DNA from: Gammaproteobacteria bacterium
Lineage (GTDB): Bacteria; Pseudomonadota; Gammaproteobacteria; UBA12402
Length of the DNA stretch: 64,000 nt
NCBI GenBank assembly: GCA_018812595.1
Contig: JAHJDF010000012.1
Location: 276 to 64,275 of the forward strand
Reading direction: 5' to 3'
The notes under the pieces were generated by a model. That model made no database searches. It saw only the letters and a program-made list of their open reading frames with translations, and was not told the DNA's origin. Below, one piece after another: positions 22,982-50,696 of the stretch. The translations under genes were made by a program, and so were the position numbers. Numbering within the stretch: the first letter of the stretch is position 1; every line of letters begins with the position of its first letter.

Positions 22982-23434
22982 TTAATCCCATACATACCGT
23001 TCATCCCATTGCAAATGATATTGCCTCATCAAATGACGATATTCTTCTTGAAAACTGGTTCTCCGATGATGTTTCGCCTGATTCAATATATAAGTCTCCA
23101 ACGCGGTCAGATGCGTAGGACTAATCGAAAAAATCCCATAACCATTTTGCCAATGAAACCTCTGATAGAGAGGAGAATAAGCTTTTAACCATTTCGTAGA
23201 ACCCATTTTAATGGCTTTAACTAAATCCGATGAAGAGCATGTGCGCGGATGAATGATTGATAAGTGAACGTGATCAGTGACAGAACCCGCTTTCAATAAA
23301 ATCCCCTTTTGATTTTTAATAATCCCATTCATATAAGCATGTAATTTATCTCGAATATCATCGCCAATGTTTGGTTCCCTATTTTTTGTTGAAAAAACCA
23401 AGTGCACTAGAATGTTTGAGATCGATTGCGGCAT
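22982..23434 (-). CDS. REP-associated tyrosine transposase (RAYT, IS200/IS605 TnpA-like, Y1 HUH)
   Basis: 150 aa with the HUH motif HVHLSI and a C-terminal catalytic Tyr context (TYILNQ). Flanked directly by palindromic hairpins. Confidence 0.75.
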   Translation of the reverse strand: MPQSISNILVHLVFSTKNREPNIGDDIRDKLHAYMNGIIKNQKGILLKAGSVTDHVHLSIIHPRTCSSSDLVKAIKMGSTKWLKAYSPLYQRFHWQNGYGIFSISPTHLTALETYILNQAKHHRRTSFQEEYRHLMRQYHLQWDERYVWD

Positions 23435-36689: not shown

Positions 36690-37605
36690 ACCAATGAAAA
36701 CGAAAAAGAATTTTTACACACCGCTTTACTGGCCTTTCTGGATTTTGATTTTTTTCTTTTGGTGTATAGCTCATTTGCCTTATCGCTTTCAAATGACTTT
36801 AGGAAAAGGATTAGGCCTACTCCTGCATCGTTTTGCGAAACGAATGAAACGCATTGCACAAATCAATTTAGATCTTTGCTTTCCTGAACTCAGTATTGAT
36901 GAACGAGCACAGTTGTTACGTAAAAATTTTATTTCTGTAGGAAAAGGGATTTTTGAAACCGCTCTAGCATGGTGGGGCTCAGACGAGCAGTTGCAACGCT
37001 TTGCAACCTTCCACGGAGAGGAATACTTAAACCAATCATTGGCGGAAGGAAAAGGTGTTATTTTTCTAGGCGGTCATTTCACATCACTTGAATTAGTCGG
37101 TCGTCTTTACGCAATGCGTAAACCGTTTGCCATTGTGTATCGAGAACACAAAATTCCTTTTGTGAATTTCATCATGACGCGTCATTACAAAAAGATTTAT
37201 GCAGAACTCATCGAACGAAACAACATTCGAGCCGCTTTGAAGAGATTAAAACGAGGAGAAATTGTGTGGTTTACTCCGGACGTCGATGCCGGCCATTTTC
37301 ACAATGTTTTTGTCCCATTCTTCAATGTCTTGGCTTCTTCAGTCATTGCAACATCACGCCTTGCTGCATTAACGAAAGCAAAGGTCTGCCCGGTCTATTT
37401 CTTCAGACAAGAAAACGACGAAGGTTATGAAATAAAACTTCAACCGCCACTCACAGATTTTCCAACGGATGACGTTGAACAAGACACCGCACGCATCAAC
37501 AAAATTACAGAAGAAGCTGTGCGCCAACACCCCGATCAATACATGTGGCAATACATGCGATTTAAAACCCGTCCCGAAGGCGAAGAACGGTTTTATAAAA
37601 AATAA
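36679..37605 (+). CDS. lpxL: Lipid A biosynthesis lauroyl/myristoyl acyltransferase (LpxL/HtrB family)
   Basis: N-terminal TM helix plus HtrB-like blocks and an LPLAT H(x4)D-type region. 308 aa. Confidence 0.8.
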   Translation: MGFKPMKTKKNFYTPLYWPFWILIFFFWCIAHLPYRFQMTLGKGLGLLLHRFAKRMKRIAQINLDLCFPELSIDERAQLLRKNFISVGKGIFETALAWWGSDEQLQRFATFHGEEYLNQSLAEGKGVIFLGGHFTSLELVGRLYAMRKPFAIVYREHKIPFVNFIMTRHYKKIYAELIERNNIRAALKRLKRGEIVWFTPDVDAGHFHNVFVPFFNVLASSVIATSRLAALTKAKVCPVYFFRQENDEGYEIKLQPPLTDFPTDDVEQDTARINKITEEAVRQHPDQYMWQYMRFKTRPEGEERFYKK

Positions 37606-37662
37606 CGTTTTACCTTGAAAATTGTGTGGCAATCGCACAATTTTCAATGTAAATTACCTCTT

Positions 37663-38805
37663 ATGAAACGAACATACTTTCTTCAACAACTTCATTCGGC
37701 CTTCAATACGCACCCAATTGTTGCAATTTTAGGGCCTCGGCAATGCGGAAAAACCACCCTTTCCCGTCAATATGCGGCCTCTCAACCCGACGTCACATTT
37801 TTTGACCTGGAAGACAGTCGCGATTTGGCAAAATTACAAGACCCAGCGCTTGCATTGGCCTCTTTGAAGGGCCTAGTCATTCTCGACGAAATTCAACGGG
37901 TACCAGAATTATTTCCCATACTTCGAGTACTCATCGATCAAGCAAATCGTCAAACGCACTATTTAATCTTAGGAAGTGCCTCTCGCGATTTAATTCGACA
38001 GTCTTCAGAAACATTAGCCGGACGCATTGAATATCTAGAACTCACCCCATTCTCTTTTCAGGAAGTCGGTGAATTTGAAAAATTATGGTTACGAGGAGGT
38101 TTTCCCCTGTCATTTCTAGCAAACGATGAAAATACAAGTAATCGTTGGCGCAAAGCCTACATTCGCACCTTTCTTGAAAAAGACATCCCTAACTTGGGTT
38201 TTAGAATTGCACCAGAAACCCTACGAAGATTCTGGATGATGCTTGCTCATTACCATGCAAATATTTTTAACGCCTCTGAATTAGGACGTTCATTTGGTGT
38301 TGCACATACAACAATTGAACATTATCTCGATATCTTGACAGGAACTTTTATGGTCCGTCGATTGCGACCATGGATTGAAAACATCAAAAAACGACAAGTG
38401 AAAGCTCCAAAAATTTACTTTCGTGATAGCGGTATCCTACATACCCTTCTAGGGATCGAAACGATGAATCATCTGCTTTCCAATCCAAAACTCGGAGCGT
38501 CTTGGGAAGGATTTGCAATGGAAGAAATTATTCGAGCACATCATGCAGAACAAGAAGCCTGTTATTTTTGGTCAACTCATACCGGCGCTGAATTAGATCT
38601 ATTGCTTTTTCAAAACCAACAACGTTTAGGTTTCGAATTCAAATATTCCTCTTCACCCAAGTTAACAAAATCCATGCATATAGCTTTAGAAACTCTCAAG
38701 CTAGATCAATTAACTGTGATCACACCAGGAAACGATCAATATCCGTTAACCGATCACATTGAAGTCTTTGGTATAGAAAAATATATAGATCAACAATCAT
38801 TTTAA
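37663..38805 (+). CDS. COG1373 AAA+ ATPase (AAA_14 plus DUF4143)
   Basis: Walker A ILGPRQCGKTT, Walker B VILDEIQ, and a C-terminal DUF4143-like region. Inserted within a duplicated lpxL 3' end. Start set at the internal Met; the track ORF begins at 37615. Confidence 0.8.
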   Translation: MKRTYFLQQLHSAFNTHPIVAILGPRQCGKTTLSRQYAASQPDVTFFDLEDSRDLAKLQDPALALASLKGLVILDEIQRVPELFPILRVLIDQANRQTHYLILGSASRDLIRQSSETLAGRIEYLELTPFSFQEVGEFEKLWLRGGFPLSFLANDENTSNRWRKAYIRTFLEKDIPNLGFRIAPETLRRFWMMLAHYHANIFNASELGRSFGVAHTTIEHYLDILTGTFMVRRLRPWIENIKKRQVKAPKIYFRDSGILHTLLGIETMNHLLSNPKLGASWEGFAMEEIIRAHHAEQEACYFWSTHTGAELDLLLFQNQQRLGFEFKYSSSPKLTKSMHIALETLKLDQLTVITPGNDQYPLTDHIEVFGIEKYIDQQSF

Positions 38806-38847
38806 ATTGATACGCGAAAACAGCTTCTCCTCAGCAATTCTCGAACT

Positions 38848-39000
38848 GATTTTCCAACGGATGACGTTGAACAAGACACCGCACGCATCAACAAAATTAC
38901 AGAGAAAGCGGTGCGCCAATACCCCGATCAATACATGTGGCAATACATGCGATTTAAAACCCGCCCCGAAGGCGAAGAACGGTTTTATCGGAAATGACAA
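38848..39000 (+). repeat. Second, about 93%-identical copy of the lpxL 3' end (last about 50 codons plus stop)
   Basis: Direct duplication of 37455..37607 flanking the COG1373 ATPase gene. Reads in frame to a TGA. Confidence 0.85.
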
Positions 39001-39114
39001 ATGAACTATGCGGAGTCAAGGCTTTGTGAAAATCAGACAACCTCGGCCTGCTTTACTTTGCATCAGGAATTTTCTCTCCAACCCTCAAATTTCGTATCCT
39101 TCGGCTCTATTTTT

Positions 39115-39936
39115 TCAGCCTTTGTTGAAAGTATTTAACGGAATATACTCCAAAGAGTTTTCATGTTTTTTCAGAAAACGTAGAAATGCTAACTCAGGCA
39201 AAGAGGGCTTTGGCAAAGAAGAAGAGAGGCTCTCTGATAATGCACAAAATTTTTCCCAATTTTGGTTAGATTTATTTGTGTAATCGAAAATCCTTCCCCT
39301 CACCTCTAATTCAAGATCTAGAGCATTAGCATCTAAGTGATCAAAAATATCTAAAATCGCCTCTGCTTCCTTTGAATTGGCAGAACCGCTGTCCGTTAGC
39401 ACGGACTGAATCCACTCCACAAATGTTTTGATCGCATCTTTAACATTGTCAAAAGCCATCGATTCATCATCTTTTTGCTCTTGCGTCGCAATTACAAAAG
39501 AAAAATCGTAGCCTAGATCAGAAGGTAATCCCTCTAGAGTCTCCTGAATGTGTTCAGCAATTTTGAAGACACAAACTTCCTTTTTTAAAAATTCTAAAAA
39601 TTCTTCAACGGACTGGCTTATCGGATGTTCTTCGTCAAAATGAATTGCTTTCAGCTGCTCTAAACAGCTCCTCAATGCCGTTAGATTTTTAAAATCACCT
39701 TCCTCCTGAAAAGCCTTTACACAAGTACCAAAATTCTCAACGTCATTCAGCTCCTCTCTACTGCTAGACAGATCATCTTCCTTCGTCGCGCCTTGTACTT
39801 TTTTAATTTTTCCTAAAAGTTCAGAGCATTTGCTTAATATCTTTTCTTGTGTCGATGCAGGCAATTTAATCTTGCCTAACGACATCTCTACCTCTTTTTT
39901 TATGCAATCAAGGTTATTTTTGTGAGAGTTGAACAT
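39115..39936 (-). CDS. Hypothetical acidic protein (273 aa), candidate effector
   Basis: Good RBS (ggaga 9 nt upstream). AT-rich, helical and acidic; no recognisable domain. Confidence 0.5.
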   Translation of the reverse strand: MFNSHKNNLDCIKKEVEMSLGKIKLPASTQEKILSKCSELLGKIKKVQGATKEDDLSSSREELNDVENFGTCVKAFQEEGDFKNLTALRSCLEQLKAIHFDEEHPISQSVEEFLEFLKKEVCVFKIAEHIQETLEGLPSDLGYDFSFVIATQEQKDDESMAFDNVKDAIKTFVEWIQSVLTDSGSANSKEAEAILDIFDHLDANALDLELEVRGRIFDYTNKSNQNWEKFCALSESLSSSLPKPSLPELAFLRFLKKHENSLEYIPLNTFNKG

Positions 39937-45498: not shown

Positions 45499-46962
45499 CT
45501 ATAAAGAATAAAAAATCTCCTGAAGCGTTGAATCTTTCAGATTCATTAAAAATCGTCTTTTGTCTTTTTCTAATGCTCGTAATAAGCGTTTTTGTCCTGT
45601 AAGACGTTTTATACTGTCTAGATCAATCATAAAAACTTTCTGATCGTGCACAATGAAATTGCTGGCTTTCATGTCGCCGTGAGTCAGTTTCAATCGTAAG
45701 AAACAATCAAAAATTATTTTTATCTGCTGCAATATCCTTTGTTTTTGCTCAAGAGAAATCTTGTGTTCAAGATATCGATTCAATAAATCCCCTGATACAA
45801 ATTCAGACACGTAATAAGCCTTTCCTCTGAAAATTCCATACCGCTTTTCGATCAATGCAACCGGCTTTGGCAACGGCATGCGATACAACTCCAATCGATG
45901 TGCATTTTTCCAATATTGCGCAGCGCGAGTGCTTCGAAAGAAACGGTTCAATCGATGCAGCCAATTTTTGATGTTGTACCGCTTTACAACAAACAAACGC
46001 CCATCGATCGAAACTTTCGAAACCGTACACGTATTGCCGTCTTTCAAGCATTCTCCTTTATCCATCCAAAAATCAGGCGCATTCAGAAAGGAAATAAACT
46101 CAGGAGATACATATTCTTTGCGACACACATAATGAAAATGCTTGTTTTTCCCAGCACGAAATAACGTCGCATTTCTAAAGATCTTTTTTAACTTTTCTTT
46201 TTCTCTCTTTAAACGAGAAAGATATTGCCAATGTTCTAACTGACGCACCCAATCTGCTTTTTTATCGTACGTGTTTAAATCTTTTCTTCCCTGCAAATAA
46301 ACATCCAATAGCTTTTCCAGCTTGTCATCAGCGGTGGGCGACAATTGCGCCAACAATTCCCCTAAATTCTTAAGGCAATCGGCCATAGGAAGAGGCATGC
46401 CTTTCTGCCTAACCTCTTGTGAATCTAGAACAAACAAACCCTCTTGCGTGGCAAGGTAATTGTGAGGATGCAGATCGCTGTGCAACAACCCCTTGGCATG
46501 TTGCAACGCCAATTGCTGAATAAAAGGCTCCGCATTGGTCGCAAAAAATAAATCATCGGCATCGATTGTTTGTTTAAGGTATTTAAACAAGATGACAAAG
46601 AGATGATTAGAACCCTCCGAATATAAAATCTCAGGGGTTCTTATGTGATGTTTTTCTAAAAGCCTTGTACCCCGAAGAGTCTCCTGGAAATATCGTTCCG
46701 CTCGACGCGTTCCAAAATAAATCTTTCCAACGACGGGCATCCCTTTCCATCTTCCTTTAACAACCATTCTTTTGTTCGGAAGCATTCGCAAAATTTCTTC
46801 ACAAAGCAGCGTTTGATCGCCCAAGGCAACAGAAAAAGGAGCTCGTATATCGGGTCTCAATTGTTTCGCATCGGAAATCAAAATCATTGAATCGCTCGTT
46901 TCTTGAAAAGTTGTTCGGCTCTCTTTTTGACGGTCAACCAAAAAGATCGTTCTAAAGGCCAT
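45499..46962 (-). CDS. LPS-core kinase-like protein with two tandem Kdo/WaaP-type kinase-like domains
   Basis: N-terminal half has LHSDLHPHNYL; C-terminal half has THGDMKASNFIVHDQKVFMIDLD (HxDxxxxN Brenner-type catalytic motifs). The true start may be the internal Met at about 46887 (ATGA overlap with the upstream gene). Confidence 0.6.
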   Translation of the reverse strand: MAFRTIFLVDRQKESRTTFQETSDSMILISDAKQLRPDIRAPFSVALGDQTLLCEEILRMLPNKRMVVKGRWKGMPVVGKIYFGTRRAERYFQETLRGTRLLEKHHIRTPEILYSEGSNHLFVILFKYLKQTIDADDLFFATNAEPFIQQLALQHAKGLLHSDLHPHNYLATQEGLFVLDSQEVRQKGMPLPMADCLKNLGELLAQLSPTADDKLEKLLDVYLQGRKDLNTYDKKADWVRQLEHWQYLSRLKREKEKLKKIFRNATLFRAGKNKHFHYVCRKEYVSPEFISFLNAPDFWMDKGECLKDGNTCTVSKVSIDGRLFVVKRYNIKNWLHRLNRFFRSTRAAQYWKNAHRLELYRMPLPKPVALIEKRYGIFRGKAYYVSEFVSGDLLNRYLEHKISLEQKQRILQQIKIIFDCFLRLKLTHGDMKASNFIVHDQKVFMIDLDSIKRLTGQKRLLRALEKDKRRFLMNLKDSTLQEIFYSL

Positions 46963-47609
46963 ATCGTGCGTAAAGAAGAGTGTCTATACGCTTTCATAAA
47001 ACGAAAAAGATCATTTCGTGTCAGCGTGATGTTCATGCTTGAAAAATAAAGCCCTGCAAGATCTTTAATGAGCCATCGCTCCGGCACTTTCTTTCTGATC
47101 TGTGCACGATGCAAATCGATCACATAAATAGGCATCAATGGGTCAAATTCTTTTCGTTCGTCCATCAGGAAATGCAAAAGGTAACAATCGCGGTGATTCA
47201 ACCCGCTTGCATGCATACGAGAAACAATTTCAGCAATTCTTTTGATCAACCGATATTTTGTATTGAAGGGCACGCCCGTTTGTTTCCACTGCAACAACAG
47301 GTCATTCACACTGCACGTATGCGTTAATGCTTCTAAAATAATAAACGACTGGATTTTGGCTGGATTCCAGCCTCGATAACCCACACCGAACACTTTCGGA
47401 ACGGACACTCCTGCACGCTCCAAATGACAGATGGCTCGATATTCATCTTTCGTACTTAAAATCGGTTTTTGTAATTTGAACAACGATTTAAAAATTTCTT
47501 TCCAACCCACACCCCAATGGCGTTTGATGAAATACTGCTTATTTTTAAGGGTGATACGTAAAGTCTCTCTCGACTCCACTTTTCTATAAGTAGTGCCTTT
47601 GACATGCAT
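46884..47609 (-). CDS. WaaP/InaA-family LPS core heptose kinase-like protein
   Basis: LNHRDCYLLHFLMDE ... YVIDLHRAQI matches the WaaP catalytic region (HRDCYICHFLL). Start set at the internal Met because a palindrome occupies 47623..47649; the track ORF begins at 47699. Confidence 0.7.
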   Translation of the reverse strand: MHVKGTTYRKVESRETLRITLKNKQYFIKRHWGVGWKEIFKSLFKLQKPILSTKDEYRAICHLERAGVSVPKVFGVGYRGWNPAKIQSFIILEALTHTCSVNDLLLQWKQTGVPFNTKYRLIKRIAEIVSRMHASGLNHRDCYLLHFLMDERKEFDPLMPIYVIDLHRAQIRKKVPERWLIKDLAGLYFSSMNITLTRNDLFRFMKAYRHSSLRTIWPLERSFWLTVKKRAEQLFKKRAIQ

Positions 47610-47622
47610 TAATACATCAAAA

Positions 47623-47649
47623 GGAGACGCAATAAATCGCGTCTCTACG
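47623..47649. terminator. Palindrome ggagacgcaataaatcgcgtctctacg immediately downstream of ftsZ
   Basis: Same family as 44388, 45409 and 12663; follows the ftsZ stop. Confidence 0.4.
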
Positions 47650-47705
47650 TTTTCGAGGGAAGATAAATGAAAGAGAGGAGATAAATTGATATACGACATG
47701 AGAAA

Positions 47706-48866: not shown

Positions 48867-49185
48867 CGCAGCATGCTCCATAGCTAACTTAAATCCCCAA
48901 AAGAACAATAGGGGCTTATCTTTTGGGCCAGCAATCTATCATTTCTAAATACCAAACTTAATAACAATTTAAAGTATTTAACCGTAGGTAAAAACCGGCT
49001 TAACACATATAAGAATTGTAAAGATAAAACCATTGAATGCCCCGAAGGGACAGGAGTTGCTTGATTTTCCGTTTCAATATTTCTGTCAACGAATTACTTA
49101 ACACACACAAGGATGACAAATATGTAGTATTTTCTTAAAAACAATATGCCAAAAATTACTGAATAATAAAAAAGGAGGCCGTGTT

Positions 49186-50166
49186 GTGTTTAAAAAATTA
49201 ACTAATTTGCCAAAACGGTTCGATCAAATAATGGAGAACTTAAGCAATAGTATAGGTAAACGTGGTAGCAAAATTTCTGTCTTAAGAAAATTGGATGAAT
49301 TCTTCGGAGATGAATTGTTAGAAAATCATCATGGTAATTATCCGAATTTAAAGTCTCCTTTAAAAACAGGAATACTAGCTACACTTGTTACTTTGTTTGG
49401 CTTTTCAGGAATCGGCATTCCTCTCGCTTCAGTTATTGGAACAATAGTAGGCACACTGTTAACTCCAACAACACCATTCCTTGGTGGAGCAATTGGTTTT
49501 GTGATAGGTGCAACAGCAGGCACTGTAACTGCTGGATTCATGACGCTTCTAATAACCGGCTTTCCTGCCTTAAGTGCTGTTGGTTTTCTAAGCCTGTTTG
49601 CTTCTACAGGTGTCCTTGGAGCAGCTGTATCCTTTCCTATTCGTTTTGCATCCGCACTAATAGAATCTGCTGTGGTCATGACACGCGGCGTTTATAAAGC
49701 GGTAGAAAATATAGTTGATGCAATATCAATCAAGAATAAATGGATAAAAGGGATCGCAACGGCGCTACTAACCCCAATAGCATTAACAACTTTTGCTCCT
49801 GTTGCAGCCGTATCCACAGTTGCAAAAGCATTAGGTCTAACGGGGCGTAGTTTATATTTCATGTTTAAAAAACTGACGAAACCCGACTCCAGTTCTGAAG
49901 AACCTGGCCTTAAAATTGGTTTAAATCCTTTACCAACGTGGACGTGGTCTGAAATAACAAAAAGAACATTATTAACTGAAGAGCGATTACCCATAGAGGT
50001 TTTATTCTCTACTACTAAGAAAGAAGTGAGCCAATTTCCAAGAGGAGCTGTATTGAATTTATTCCCTAAAAAATACAAACCGTTCATACCGCTTACTATC
50101 GAGGAAATAAAAACAGACGAAGATATACCATCAGAGGAAGGGCCATATCATGTACTTGAAAATTGA
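49186..50166 (+). CDS. Hypothetical glycine-zipper-rich membrane protein (326 aa) between ftsZ and ftsA
   Basis: GTG start 8 nt after GGAGG. Central hydrophobic stretch of about 160 aa rich in GxxxG/AxxxG repeats, with hydrophilic N- and C-terminal regions. No homology recognised. Confidence 0.55.
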   Translation: MFKKLTNLPKRFDQIMENLSNSIGKRGSKISVLRKLDEFFGDELLENHHGNYPNLKSPLKTGILATLVTLFGFSGIGIPLASVIGTIVGTLLTPTTPFLGGAIGFVIGATAGTVTAGFMTLLITGFPALSAVGFLSLFASTGVLGAAVSFPIRFASALIESAVVMTRGVYKAVENIVDAISIKNKWIKGIATALLTPIALTTFAPVAAVSTVAKALGLTGRSLYFMFKKLTKPDSSSEEPGLKIGLNPLPTWTWSEITKRTLLTEERLPIEVLFSTTKKEVSQFPRGAVLNLFPKKYKPFIPLTIEEIKTDEDIPSEEGPYHVLEN

Positions 50167-50651
50167 TGGCCTTTTTGGACGCTGTGGACATGGATCTACC
50201 CGATCTACAGTGTCAGCTGTCAGATTGCATTTCCCTGATTGCGACAACTCAATTCACCATTCATCCGTATTATGAGCAAGATATAGAAAGCTTTTCCCAA
50301 GAAATTGAAGCGCTGACCGACAAGATGAAAAAAAACCATGTGTTGCTGTTGACGAAATATTGCGTCGAAAAAAAATTGATGACGTTAAATTTCTGGAGAG
50401 ATTTAGAAGGACGCGAAGTCGATTGGGTGTTGAGTTGCGGAAATAAAATTTTGCCGATTGAAGTCAAATGGACGGATAAACCTGCAATGAAAGATTTACG
50501 TCATTTGAATACTTTCCTAAACGATTATCGGCTCAAGAAAAGTTTTGTTGTTTGCAGAATAAAAAAAGCAACAATTTCGTTATTTTTGCACAGCAACTTG
50601 AAATTACCTGAATTAGGATGGTCTGTAATATATGGCCCAATTTCTGTGTAA
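50163..50651 (+). pseudogene. Remnant (C-terminal DUF4143-like portion) of a COG1373 ATPase gene
   Basis: LNFWRDLEGREVDWVL...ILPIEVKWTDKP resembles the C-terminal domain of the intact COG1373 ATPase at 37663..38805 (FWSTHTGAELDLLL...LGFEFKYSSSPK). The P-loop domain is missing. Confidence 0.45.
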
Positions 50652-50696
50652 TTAACCAATAGAGAGAGAAGATTCCGTGCTTATGGCCGTCTGCAT

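What the first reader, a model, noticed from the sequence alone, without database searches (positions are those of the whole stretch)
37455..39000. COG1373 AAA+ ATPase gene inserted at the 3' end of lpxL with a ~150-bp imperfect duplication of the target
The last about 150 bp of lpxL (including its stop) occur twice in direct orientation at about 93% identity (37455..37607 and 38848..39000), bracketing a 1.2-kb segment that encodes only a COG1373/DUF4143 ATPase. This looks like a site-specific insertion that carried or regenerated the 3' end of its target gene, yet no integrase is present. A 7-bp palindrome (AATTGTG-N9-CACAATT) lies between the lpxL stop and the ATPase start. A second, truncated COG1373 remnant occurs between ftsA and ftsZ, suggesting this gene family behaves as a small selfish or mobile module.
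Basis: seen in the sequence. Interest (0 to 1): 0.6.

Follow-up and report, generated by a model that had tools for sequence, protein, structure and literature searches.

The report
Defence-gene cassette displacing the lpxL end
A 1.4-kb single-gene unit, encoding a candidate anti-phage ATPase-nuclease with its own promoter, sits at the end of the lipid A gene lpxL; it brought a foreign replacement for the gene's last ~95 bases and pushed the native end downstream, and some strains of the same species lack it.

Summary
Bases 37453-37606 (the true lpxL 3' end) and 38845-38998 are direct repeats, 144/154 identical and 1,392 bp apart. They bracket only a palindrome and one AAA_14+DUF4143 gene (PADLOC candidate defence family PDC-S01).

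A metagenome contig of the same species is identical to the window except that it lacks exactly these 1,392 bp. Its lpxL ends with the downstream (B) version. So the lpxL-proximal copy A is the foreign one and B is the displaced native end.

The two copies share a 56-bp identical block, which is the crossover interval. The next 95 bp differ at 9 positions, and the codon changes keep the reading frame and stop codon.

No recombinase lies in the unit, and the only one found in the window is an IS200-type transposase.

Best reading: a horizontally acquired cassette joined through homology in the conserved lpxL terminus ("3'-end displacement"), probably by host recombination. The ATPase is cargo. 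Integration by a trans-acting integrase, or nuclease-driven self-insertion, is not excluded.

It resembles restriction-modification "insertion with long target duplication" and Rhs/T6SS C-terminal displacement. I rate it a new member of a known kind, of moderate interest.

The parts
36694..37605 (+). lpxL (LpxL/LpxP late acyltransferase), intact. Its last ~95 bp are the foreign A-type version.
   Evidence: Pfam PF03279 E=4e-72; TIGR02207 326 bits against a cut-off of 298; the exact protein is found in six assemblies.
37453..37606 (+). Repeat copy A: the functional 3' end of lpxL, including the TAA stop.
   Evidence: the repeat finder family D1; alignment; 144/154 identical to copy B.
37456..37511 (+). 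56-bp block identical in both copies (equals 38848-38903). This is the interval in which the empty and occupied alleles switch.
   Evidence: L013 follows the copy A flank up to 37455/37511, then carries every B-type base from 37512 onward; block lengths.
37512..37606 (+). Foreign (homeologous) replacement of the lpxL terminus. It differs from the native version at 9 of 95 positions.
   Evidence: The flanks of the empty and occupied alleles show no difference, yet this stretch differs at 9 sites. Over the whole repeat, 4 codon changes are synonymous (three of them in this stretch), 3 are conservative replacements, and the stop changes from TAA to TGA.
37609..37653 (.). Dyad-symmetric promoter/operator of the ATPase gene (core TGAAAAT-N17-ATTTTCA at 37616-37646).
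   Evidence: Inverted repeat I6 with 18-nt arms. It is the only match in the window. The same motif with the same 17-nt spacing lies upstream of 42/78 homologues. Palindrome score of 11 or more in 34/78 loci versus 0/57 controls.
37663..38805 (+). AAA_14 - winged helix - DUF4143 (PD-(D/E)xK) ATPase-nuclease; PADLOC candidate defence family PDC-S01.
   Evidence: Pfam; PADLOC PDLC04790 E=1e-86; Walker A/B and the D312...E325-x-K327 motif invariant in alignment A2; AlphaFold2 model pLDDT 89, closest solved folds 2qen, Orc1/Cdc6 and RFC.
38806..38844 (+). 39-nt tail between the ATPase stop and copy B, of foreign origin.
   Evidence: Absent from the empty site. Similarity to lpxL sequence upstream of the repeat is not significant (p=0.13 and 0.66).
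38845..38998 (+). Repeat copy B: the displaced native lpxL 3' end. It keeps an open frame of 51 codons and a TGA stop.
   Evidence: It is the functional lpxL end in the empty-site contig L013 / protein P0001. Annotators of the MAGs call it a 63-aa ORF with a weak PF03279 hit.
50163..50651 (+). Separate, truncated DUF4143 remnant between ftsA and ftsZ. It is not a copy of the unit above.
   Evidence: PF13635 E=2.8e-7; PDC-S01 models; no BLAST similarity to the 37663 ATPase; present in every context of the species that reaches that far.

Best explanation
The locus is a horizontally acquired, self-contained single-gene cassette. It consists of the family-typical dyad promoter plus a PDC-S01 ATPase-nuclease gene. 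It entered together with the terminal ~95 bp of a related organism's lpxL.

Recombination inside the conserved lpxL terminus joined it to the host gene. lpxL now ends in the foreign version (copy A), and the native end (copy B) was displaced downstream instead of being replaced. I call this 3'-end displacement.

The most likely agents are host recombination functions. There are two candidate routes:
- a single Campbell-type crossover of a circular copy within the 56-bp identical block; or
- a homology-anchored event with an illegitimate or interchromatid second join.

The unit can be lost again by recombination across the same block. The ATPase-nuclease is cargo, presumably an autoregulated defence gene, and not the recombinase.

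Shown: the anatomy, the presence/absence polymorphism, the foreign origin of copy A, the absence of an integrase in the window, and the family-wide promoter.

Inferred: the direction of the event (gain rather than loss), the recombination route, autoregulation, and the defence function.
For: - Empty site. L013 equals the window with 1,392 bp removed. There is no mismatch in either flank outside the repeat, and its lpxL uses the B-type end.
- The empty site is not an assembly artefact. Logan contigs from occupied samples break at the repeat (L012 covers 37542-38877; L115 and L116 end at 38934), whereas L013 runs straight through.
- SNP pattern. There are 0 differences in the 56-bp block and 9 in the following 95 bp (p=0.015). 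Codon changes preserve a working gene end.
- The lpxL terminus is unusually conserved at the DNA level, about 90% over 66 bp against an orthologue only 59% identical in protein. That makes it a natural homology anchor.
- No tyrosine or serine recombinase is in the unit or the window.
- The cassette brings its own conserved promoter, which starts 3 nt after the lpxL stop.
- The ATPase has the opposite orientation relative to the target gene in the analogous locus L053. There a toxin-antitoxin cassette is bracketed by the same kind of repeats. This argues that the ATPase is cargo.
- Published precedents: C-terminal displacement by homology-facilitated illegitimate recombination (PMC5361080), and transformation-made duplications by interchromatid integration (PMC3784515).
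Against: - Polarity is not proven. L013 could be a secondary deletion by recombination between the repeats.
- A linear-DNA route needs two recipient copies or new DNA synthesis to create a duplication. A circular route needs a circle of unknown origin.
- The abrupt left edge of homology at 38845, plus a perfectly identical 56-bp core, is also what integrase att sites look like.
- No donor lineage carrying the A-type lpxL end was found. The next lpxL relative is 59% identical.
- Competence or any other DNA-uptake route is unknown in this uncultured organism.
Confidence: 0.5

Rival explanations
1. A non-autonomous integrative element, similar to a cis-mobilizable element (CIME). The two repeats are attL and attR of a site-specific (tyrosine) recombinase encoded elsewhere in the genome or on a helper element. 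The element's attachment site carries a surrogate lpxL 3' end, as phage 21 and e14 do for icd.
For: - Imperfect direct repeats made of a gene's 3' end, with the foreign copy next to the gene and an identical core, are the classic signature.
- L053 has three tandem copies of an exonuclease gene's 3' end separating a toxin-antitoxin cassette from an ATPase cassette, which looks like accretion at one attachment site.
- L071 has a tRNA-3'-half-like repeat on both sides of the ATPase gene.
- Some plasmid homologues lie near tyrosine recombinase genes.
Against: - No integrase is in the unit, in the 64-kb window, or in the parts of L053 and L071 that were examined.
- Only 39 nt lie between the ATPase stop and copy B, and 3 nt between the lpxL stop and the promoter. 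That leaves almost no room for arm-type binding sites or remnants of a larger element.
- No element with this attachment site was found in viral contigs or in the protein searches.
Confidence: 0.2
2. The ATPase-nuclease promotes its own spread. Its PD-(D/E)xK nuclease makes a break at or near the target, and repair copies in the cassette with a long flanking duplication. This would parallel the proposal for restriction-modification units inserted with long target duplication.
For: - Flanking direct repeats are commoner around homologues than around neighbouring genes (10/66 versus 6/117, p=0.03).
- The cassette boundaries are tight.
- The family occurs as single-gene insertions between housekeeping or transfer genes.
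- The ATPase and nuclease motifs are intact.
- A precedent exists for restriction-modification systems, including single Type IV genes (PMC2853133).
Against: - The repeats here are not a simple target duplication; 9 of 95 positions differ while the flanks are identical.
- Gene orientation relative to the repeats is not fixed (window versus L053).
- Most homologues have no flanking repeats, including a second empty/occupied pair (L118 versus L121 and L123).
- All copies of this exact protein sit at the one site.
- The fold matches are generic AAA+ ATPases, not recombinases.
Confidence: 0.1
3. An old tandem duplication of the lpxL end formed in place. The cassette was inserted between the two copies and they diverged in situ. 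The empty-site allele is a recent deletion between the repeats.
For: Deletion across the 56-bp block would give exactly L013.
Against: - Copy B shows no decay. It has 51 open codons and a stop, and it serves as the working gene end in L013.
- At 37572 the B base matches the outgroup L102, so B has not drifted.
- The differences are clustered (p=0.015) rather than spread. They include a three-base codon swap (AAA to CGG), which is typical of orthologue divergence.
- The flanks are identical between the alleles.
Confidence: 0.1
4. Assembly artefact: two strain variants of the lpxL end were joined wrongly around an unrelated gene.
For: The window comes from metagenome-assembled genomes. One short contig (L104) has a hybrid copy A that could be a chimera.
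Against: Six independent assemblies from several samples give the same arrangement on contigs of 4.4 to 41 kb. De Bruijn contigs break exactly where a true repeat predicts.
Confidence: 0.02

Closest known systems
Insertion with long target duplication of restriction-modification units (Nobusato 2000; Furuta, Abe and Kobayashi 2010, PMC2853133)
   Same: A defence gene unit with no mobility gene is flanked by long direct repeats (46 to about 420 bp) that align with a single copy in an empty-site genome. The repeats often overlap the 3' end of a gene. Flanking repeats are statistically enriched around the family.
   Different: In that class the repeats are treated as duplications of the target and the two copies are near-identical. 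Here only the first 56 bp are identical; the remaining 95 bp of the gene-proximal copy are foreign. The cargo is an ATPase-nuclease of the PDC-S01 family, not a restriction-modification system.
C-terminal displacement in Rhs, CDI and T6SS effector-immunity loci, proposed to occur by homology-facilitated illegitimate recombination (Jackson 2009; Kirchberger 2017, PMC5361080)
   Same: Incoming DNA carries a homologous 3' part of the resident gene plus new downstream genes. The old 3' end is pushed downstream as an orphan rather than replaced, and repeated events build arrays, as in L053.
   Different: Those systems exchange a variable toxic tip and its immunity gene. Here the displaced piece is the conserved end of a housekeeping lipid A gene and nothing functional is exchanged within lpxL. 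The payload is an unrelated gene.
Integrase-mediated elements that integrate into the 3' end of a gene and supply a surrogate end (phage 21 and e14 in icd; ICESt3 in fda), and their integrase-less derivatives (CIMEs). This comparison rests on my own knowledge; the CIME literature is only listed.
   Same: Direct repeats made of the target's 3' end; the foreign copy completes the gene; the native copy is left at the far junction; there is an identical core.
   Different: There is no integrase and no room for attachment-site arm sequences. The element is 1.39 kb with one cargo gene. No parent element is known.
PDC-S01 (AAA_14 + DUF4143), PADLOC candidate single-gene defence system
   Same: Domain architecture and HMM match. 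The family is described as ATPase plus PD-(D/E)xK nuclease and as the fourth most common defence candidate across prokaryotes, with no experimental test (PMC12988326).
   Different: None of the papers I found in the searchable library reports its mode of insertion, a 3'-end surrogate, or the conserved dyad promoter described here.
Integron gene cassettes and toxin-antitoxin cassettes
   Same: Compact one- or two-gene units that are present or absent between conserved genes. L122 carries VapBC next to the spacer where L118 carries the ATPase.
   Different: There is no IntI and no attC. The repeats are lpxL coding sequence. The cassette has its own promoter.

Membership tests
PDC-S01 / COG1373 (AAA_14 + DUF4143) ATPase-nuclease | N-terminal AAA_14 P-loop domain with Walker A and B motifs | tested here: met
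   PF13173 E=6e-29. GPRQCGKTT and DE(I)Q are invariant in alignment A2. AAA+ fold matches.
PDC-S01 / COG1373 (AAA_14 + DUF4143) ATPase-nuclease | C-terminal DUF4143 domain with the PD-(D/E)xK motif | tested here: met
   PF13635 E=2e-46. D312, E325 and K327 are invariant. DUF4143 is listed in the PD-(D/E)xK superfamily (PMC3424549).
PDC-S01 / COG1373 (AAA_14 + DUF4143) ATPase-nuclease | Match to the PADLOC PDC-S01 models | tested here: met
   PDLC04790 E=1e-86; PDLC04789 E=9e-55.
PDC-S01 / COG1373 (AAA_14 + DUF4143) ATPase-nuclease | Anti-phage activity | not testable with these tools
   The literature says experimental validation is still pending for this family.
Site-specific integrative element or CIME | Integrase gene inside the element (autonomous form) | tested here: not met
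   The unit holds a single ORF with no recombinase domain.
Site-specific integrative element or CIME | Direct repeats (attL/attR) derived from the target, with the surrogate 3' end next to the gene | tested here: met
Site-specific integrative element or CIME | A cognate recombinase acting in trans, and an excised circular form | not testable with these tools
   None is in the 64-kb window. The rest of the genome and the raw reads are not available.
Insertion with long target duplication (restriction-modification type) | Defence unit without mobility genes, flanked by repeats longer than 30 bp that align with one copy in an empty-site genome | tested here: met
   L013 versus the window.
Insertion with long target duplication (restriction-modification type) | The repeats are a duplication of the recipient's own target sequence | tested here: inconclusive
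   This holds for the 56-bp block at most. The other 95 bp of copy A differ from the target at 9 sites.
C-terminal (3'-end) displacement | The incoming segment carries a homologous 3' part of the resident gene, and the old end is retained downstream | tested here: met
   Copy A is foreign, and copy B is native and intact.
C-terminal (3'-end) displacement | One homologous and one illegitimate junction | tested here: inconclusive
   The left switch lies within 37456-37511. The right junction at 38845-38848 has at most 2 nt of visible microhomology, and the donor sequence is unknown.
Transposon or insertion sequence | Terminal inverted repeats, a short target-site duplication, and a transposase | tested here: not met
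   No terminal inverted repeats at the unit's ends. The repeats are 154 bp. There is no transposase in the unit.
Integron cassette | attC recombination site and an IntI integrase at the array | tested here: not met
   The repeats are lpxL coding sequence. No IntI is in the window.
Free-standing homing endonuclease gene | Insertion by break repair with co-conversion of the flanks and no duplication | tested here: not met
   A 154-bp duplication is present, and the putative target (copy B) persists in the occupied allele.

The most novel reading that the evidence does not exclude
PDC-S01 genes may be autonomous selfish cassettes. The ATPase-nuclease, guided by its winged helix and dyad site, would create or exploit a break next to a conserved gene end and be copied in together with a surrogate end. 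That would be a recombinase-free mobility mode shared by the fourth most common defence candidate family, and possibly by toxin-antitoxin cassettes.
Probability: 0.12. Interest if true: 0.8.

Novelty: new member of a known kind. Interest (0 to 1): 0.48.

Why it matters
PDC-S01 is reported as one of the most widespread candidate defence genes, yet nothing is known about how it works or how it moves. This locus gives a clean natural pair of occupied and empty alleles within one species. It shows that the gene travels as a 1.2-kb promoter-plus-ORF cassette. It can enter a genome through a single short patch of homology in a conserved gene while keeping that gene intact.

The family-wide dyad promoter (TGAAAAT-N17-ATTTTCA around the -35 box) is a directly testable handle on regulation. 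It could also serve as a marker for cassette boundaries in genome surveys.

If small cassettes are generally acquired by 3'-end displacement, that would help explain how single-gene defence and toxin-antitoxin modules appear between housekeeping genes without any mobile-element machinery.

Tried and rejected
- The genome-contig scan with lpxL found only relatives at 37-38% identity, so it gave no close relatives for a synteny survey.
- The nearest lpxL relative (59% identity, L102/L103) has terminators after lpxL, but the contig ends 168 bp downstream, so it is uninformative.
- The look-up of P0243 failed.
- A viral-contig scan found no homologue. A PDB sequence search found none.
- ARAGORN and Rfam did not recognise the tRNA-like repeat of L071, so that target remains tentative.
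- My reading of the L048 repeats as the 3' end of a PIN-toxin gene is not supported by Pfam.
- The idea that the 39-nt tail is a degenerate continuation of lpxL homology was tested and is not significant (p=0.13 and 0.66).
- Several flanking repeats in the survey turned out to be repeated operator palindromes of neighbouring paralogues (L033, L037) or noncoding repeat families (L044, L085, L032), not target duplications.
- No empty site was found for the ftsA-ftsZ insertion. L111 looked promising but is identical to the window.
- An RNA-hairpin reading of the palindrome was considered and rejected. Non-complementary positions show no excess of G:T, and the centre carries a TTGACA box, so a DNA-level operator is favoured.
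- The IS200-type transposase at 22982-23434 was considered as a helper and rejected. That enzyme family does not produce long duplications (own knowledge), and the unit has only one hairpin.
Full report
**Observation.** The repeat is real. The repeat finder reports one 154-nt direct-repeat family, 37453-37606 and 38845-38998, with 1,392 bp spacing. All other repeats nearby are 31 nt or shorter. An ungapped comparison gives 144/154 identical bases, with identical blocks of 56, 43 and 24 bp.

Copy A is the genuine end of a late lipid A acyltransferase, lpxL at 36694-37605 (PF03279 E=4e-72; TIGR02207 above its cut-off). Between the copies lie three things: an inverted repeat with 18-nt arms (37609-37626 and 37636-37653), one ORF (37663-38805) with AAA_14 and DUF4143 domains, and a 39-nt tail. 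GC content is unremarkable: 0.40 for the ORF against 0.42 for the window.

Six independent assemblies carry the same arrangement at 99.9% identity or better, and both repeat copies were checked and found unchanged in five of them. It is not an assembly artefact.

**An empty site exists.** The protein search with lpxL returned a 99%-identical variant, P0001. Its C-terminus (...EKAVRQY...FYRK) is the translation of copy B, not copy A.

Its contig, L013 (Logan assembly of SRR26275509, 1,997 bp), matches the window from 35924 through the 56-bp block. It then carries every B-type base and continues into 38999-39312. It shows no difference from the window in either flank outside the repeat. L013 is therefore the window minus exactly 1,392 bp.

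In samples with the occupied allele, Logan contigs stop where a k=31 graph must branch at a true repeat. L012 covers 37542-38877, and L115 and L116 end at 38934. L013 runs straight through. That argues L013 is a real allele and not a chimera.

A further contig, L104 (GCA_018822115.1), has a hybrid copy A: B-type at 37512-37528 and A-type from 37572, followed by the ATPase gene. This is either gene conversion, a crossover in the second identical block, or a mixed-strain consensus.

**Which copy is foreign.** The empty and occupied alleles do not differ in the 1.5 kb of shared sequence upstream of the repeat or in the 314 bp downstream of it. The last 95 bp of copy A nevertheless differ from copy B at 9 positions. 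So the A-type end did not arise by divergence within this lineage at the rate of its surroundings.

Over the whole repeat the codon changes are 4 synonymous, 3 conservative replacements (E/K, H/Y, K/R, the last a three-base codon swap) and TAA to TGA. Copy B keeps 51 open codons. Both versions look like working gene ends from two lineages.

All 9 of these differences fall in the distal 95 of the repeat's remaining 151 positions (p=0.015). Apart from one synonymous third-position change in its first codon (37455 versus 38847), the proximal part of the repeat, including the 56-bp block, is identical.

The terminal part of lpxL is unusually conserved at the DNA level. It is about 90% identical over 66 bp to L102, whose protein is only 59% identical. 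It is therefore the one stretch where a foreign lpxL could pair with the host gene.

One caveat on polarity. L013 could be the ancestral state, or it could be a deletion by recombination between the repeats. The polymorphism alone does not decide this.

**The gene.** The protein matches the PADLOC models for PDC-S01 (E=1e-86). This is a candidate single-gene defence system found by "guilt by embedding". It is described as an ATPase fused to a PD-(D/E)xK domain and as the fourth most common defence candidate across prokaryotes, with no experimental validation (PMC12988326). DUF4143 is listed in the PD-(D/E)xK superfamily (PMC3424549).

In an alignment of 24 homologues the Walker A and B motifs and D312...E325-x-K327 are invariant. 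An AlphaFold2 model (pLDDT 89, pTM 0.87) shows an AAA+ core, a helix-turn-helix with a beta wing, and an alpha/beta C-terminal domain. The nearest solved folds are the Pyrococcus Walker ATPase 2qen, Orc1/Cdc6, RFC subunits and STAND ATPases. These are generic AAA+ relatives, not recombinases. There is no solved structure by sequence.

More than 8,000 homologues cluster at about 60% identity across Gammaproteobacteria and Chlamydiales. The closest non-self relative is only 69% identical. Homologues occur on 307 of 72,556 plasmids and on none of the viral contigs scanned.

**The palindrome is the family's promoter/operator.** Upstream of the start codon, 42 of 78 homologous loci carry TGAAAAT...ATTTTCA (at most 1 mismatch in each half). 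In 38 of those 42 the two halves are exactly 17 nt apart. The window copy is a perfect match at 37616-37646 and is the only one in the window.

A palindrome score of 11 or more is reached in 34/78 upstream regions and in 0/57 control windows (p=1.6e-10).

The five positions inside each half-site are complementary in about 70% of loci and use several different base pairs. The central 7 nt are not complementary and usually read TTGACAT. A TATAAT-like hexamer often follows the right arm. Mismatched positions show no excess of G:T.

The simplest reading is a sigma-70 promoter whose -35 box sits between two half-sites of a dyad operator, presumably bound by the protein's own winged helix. That is inferred, not tested. 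It begins 3 nt after the lpxL stop codon.

**No recombinase.** Pfam scans of the ORFs of 120 aa or more across the window found housekeeping genes and one IS200-type Y1 transposase (22982-23434). They found no tyrosine or serine recombinase and no DDE transposase.

**Is this typical of the family?** I scored 80 metagenomic loci, 3 loci from encoding-contig look-ups and 4 plasmid loci for plus-strand repeats bracketing the gene. The result was 10/66 ATPase genes positive against 6/117 neighbouring ORFs, and four of those six controls came from one repeat-rich contig (p=0.03; an earlier, stricter run is).

Several positives are not target duplications. They are repeated operator palindromes of adjacent paralogues (L033, L037) or noncoding repeat families.

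One positive is a close analogue. L053 has three copies of the 3' end of a DnaQ/RNase T-type exonuclease gene, including its catalytic H-x4-D motif. Copy 3 belongs to the intact gene. The ATPase cassette lies between copies 3 and 2, and a ParE-type toxin-antitoxin cassette lies between copies 2 and 1, next to cas1. Differences between the copies are mostly synonymous. In L053 the ATPase gene points the opposite way relative to the target gene, and a different cargo is bracketed in the same manner. Both points suggest that the ATPase is cargo and that the repeat-forming process is general.

L071 has a tRNA-3'-half-like repeat on both sides of the gene, 1,399 bp apart. No tool recognised an intact tRNA there.

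Most homologues have no repeats at all. The 69% relative sits between prlC and rpiA with gaps of 66 and 9 bp (L094). The 66% relative is convergent with, and overlaps, the ABC-transporter gene of the same fecCD-ABC neighbourhood (L097).

A second empty/occupied pair comes from Sphingobium plasmids. About 1,345 bp are inserted into the 47-bp spacer between a hypothetical gene and traH (L118 versus L121 and L123), with no long repeat. A VapBC module sits in the next spacer of pCHQ1.

**The ftsA-ftsZ remnant.** The region 48909-50696 holds a 326-aa membrane-like ORF and a 162-aa ORF. The C-terminus of the latter matches the nuclease core of DUF4143. It has no BLAST similarity to the 37663 gene, no flanking repeats and no dyad motif. 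It is present in every context recovered for this species that reaches that far. It is an older, unrelated insertion of the same superfamily.

**Mechanism.** Three facts constrain it:
- The gene-proximal copy is foreign and the distal copy is native.
- The switch lies in a 56-bp identical block at the proximal edge of the repeat.
- No recombinase is present, and there is almost no spare DNA in the unit.

I favour recombination anchored in the conserved lpxL terminus that displaced the native end rather than replacing it. Two routes are possible. One is a single Campbell-type crossover of a circular copy. The other is a homology-anchored event whose second join fell 56 bp upstream. In that second case the identical block is a true target duplication and only the distal 95 bp are donor DNA, which would explain the clustered differences.

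Both routes have precedents. [quoted passage not shown] Transformation has been shown experimentally to create duplications by interchromatid integration that keep an intact copy of an essential gene (PMC3784515).

A trans-acting integrase (a CIME-like element) fits the repeat anatomy equally well, but there is no positive evidence for it. Nuclease-driven self-insertion, as proposed for restriction-modification units inserted with long target duplication (PMC2853133), is weakened by three observations: the variable gene orientation, the homeologous rather than identical repeats, and the many repeat-free loci. In-place duplication followed by divergence fits poorly with the intact, outgroup-like copy B.

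**Verdict.** The finding is real and well delimited. It is a new example, for a very common but uncharacterised defence-candidate family, of a known class of event: defence cassettes flanked by long repeats derived from a gene's 3' end, also called 3'-end displacement. The mechanism remains unresolved. The conserved dyad promoter and the natural empty/occupied pair are the most useful new facts.

Noticed in passing
window 37616-37646; loci L014-L120 upstream of each ATPase start: A family-wide fixed-geometry dyad, TGAAAAT-N17-ATTTTCA, with covarying inner half-sites, a TTGACA-like centre and a TATAAT-like box after the right arm. In some alphaproteobacterial plasmid copies the right arm (…TTGCAAGG) abuts the ATG directly. 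I found no description of it in the searchable literature.
   Followed up: yes
window 48909-50696: A 1.8-kb insertion splits the normally adjacent ftsA and ftsZ genes. It holds a 326-aa membrane-like ORF with no Pfam hit and a DUF4143 C-terminal remnant on the opposite strand. It is present in all contexts of the species that reach that far.
   Followed up: partly
window 45499-47699 and 16145-17143: ftsZ is followed by two Kdo/WaaP-family kinase genes rather than lpxC. lpxC lies about 30 kb away, next to DciA and SecA, so the end of the cell-division (dcw) gene cluster is rearranged.
   Followed up: no
window 22982-23434 (minus strand): An IS200-type Y1 transposase gene (PF01797 E=2e-20). It is the only recombinase found in the window.
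   Followed up: no
window 9213-12389 (minus strand) and 1626-3032 (minus strand): A 1,058-aa ORF with no Pfam match, and a 468-aa ORF with a eukaryotic-type protein kinase domain. Together with the 39115-39936 orphan ORF, these may be effector-like genes of a host-associated gammaproteobacterium.
   Followed up: no
window 37531-37596 versus L102 6847-6912: The last 66 bp of lpxL are about 90% identical in DNA between orthologues only 59% identical in protein. They contain a terminator-like hairpin (scan hit on the minus strand at 37590-37569).
   Followed up: partly
L053 3025-5275: Three tandem copies of the 3' end of a DnaQ/RNase T-type exonuclease gene separate a ParE-type toxin-antitoxin cassette from a PDC-S01 cassette, next to cas1. 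It is a small accretion array of defence cassettes at one gene end.
   Followed up: partly
L104 (GCA_018822115.1) 1063-1079, equivalent to window 37512-37528: A hybrid lpxL end: B-type at four sites and A-type further on, followed by the ATPase gene. It is gene conversion, an alternative crossover, or a mixed-strain consensus.
   Followed up: partly
L097-L100 1063-2199: A 66%-identical ATPase homologue sits convergent with, and overlaps by 9 bp, the ABC-transporter gene of the same fecCD-ABC-RNase R neighbourhood in a related lineage that has no lpxL there.
   Followed up: partly
L118 3787-5178 versus L121 and L123; L122 1892-2795: In Sphingobium-type conjugative plasmids, one spacer of the traF-hyp-traH transfer-gene block carries a PDC-S01 cassette in pMSHV. 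The neighbouring spacer carries VapBC in pCHQ1. Other plasmids have neither.
   Followed up: partly
L071 3-121 (minus strand): A group II intron domain 1-4 fragment (RF01999, 117 bits) lies 300 bp from the tRNA-like repeat that flanks the ATPase gene.
   Followed up: no
window 4187-9052: A complete arginine deiminase pathway cluster: permease, arginine deiminase, carbamate kinase-like and ornithine carbamoyltransferase genes.
   Followed up: no
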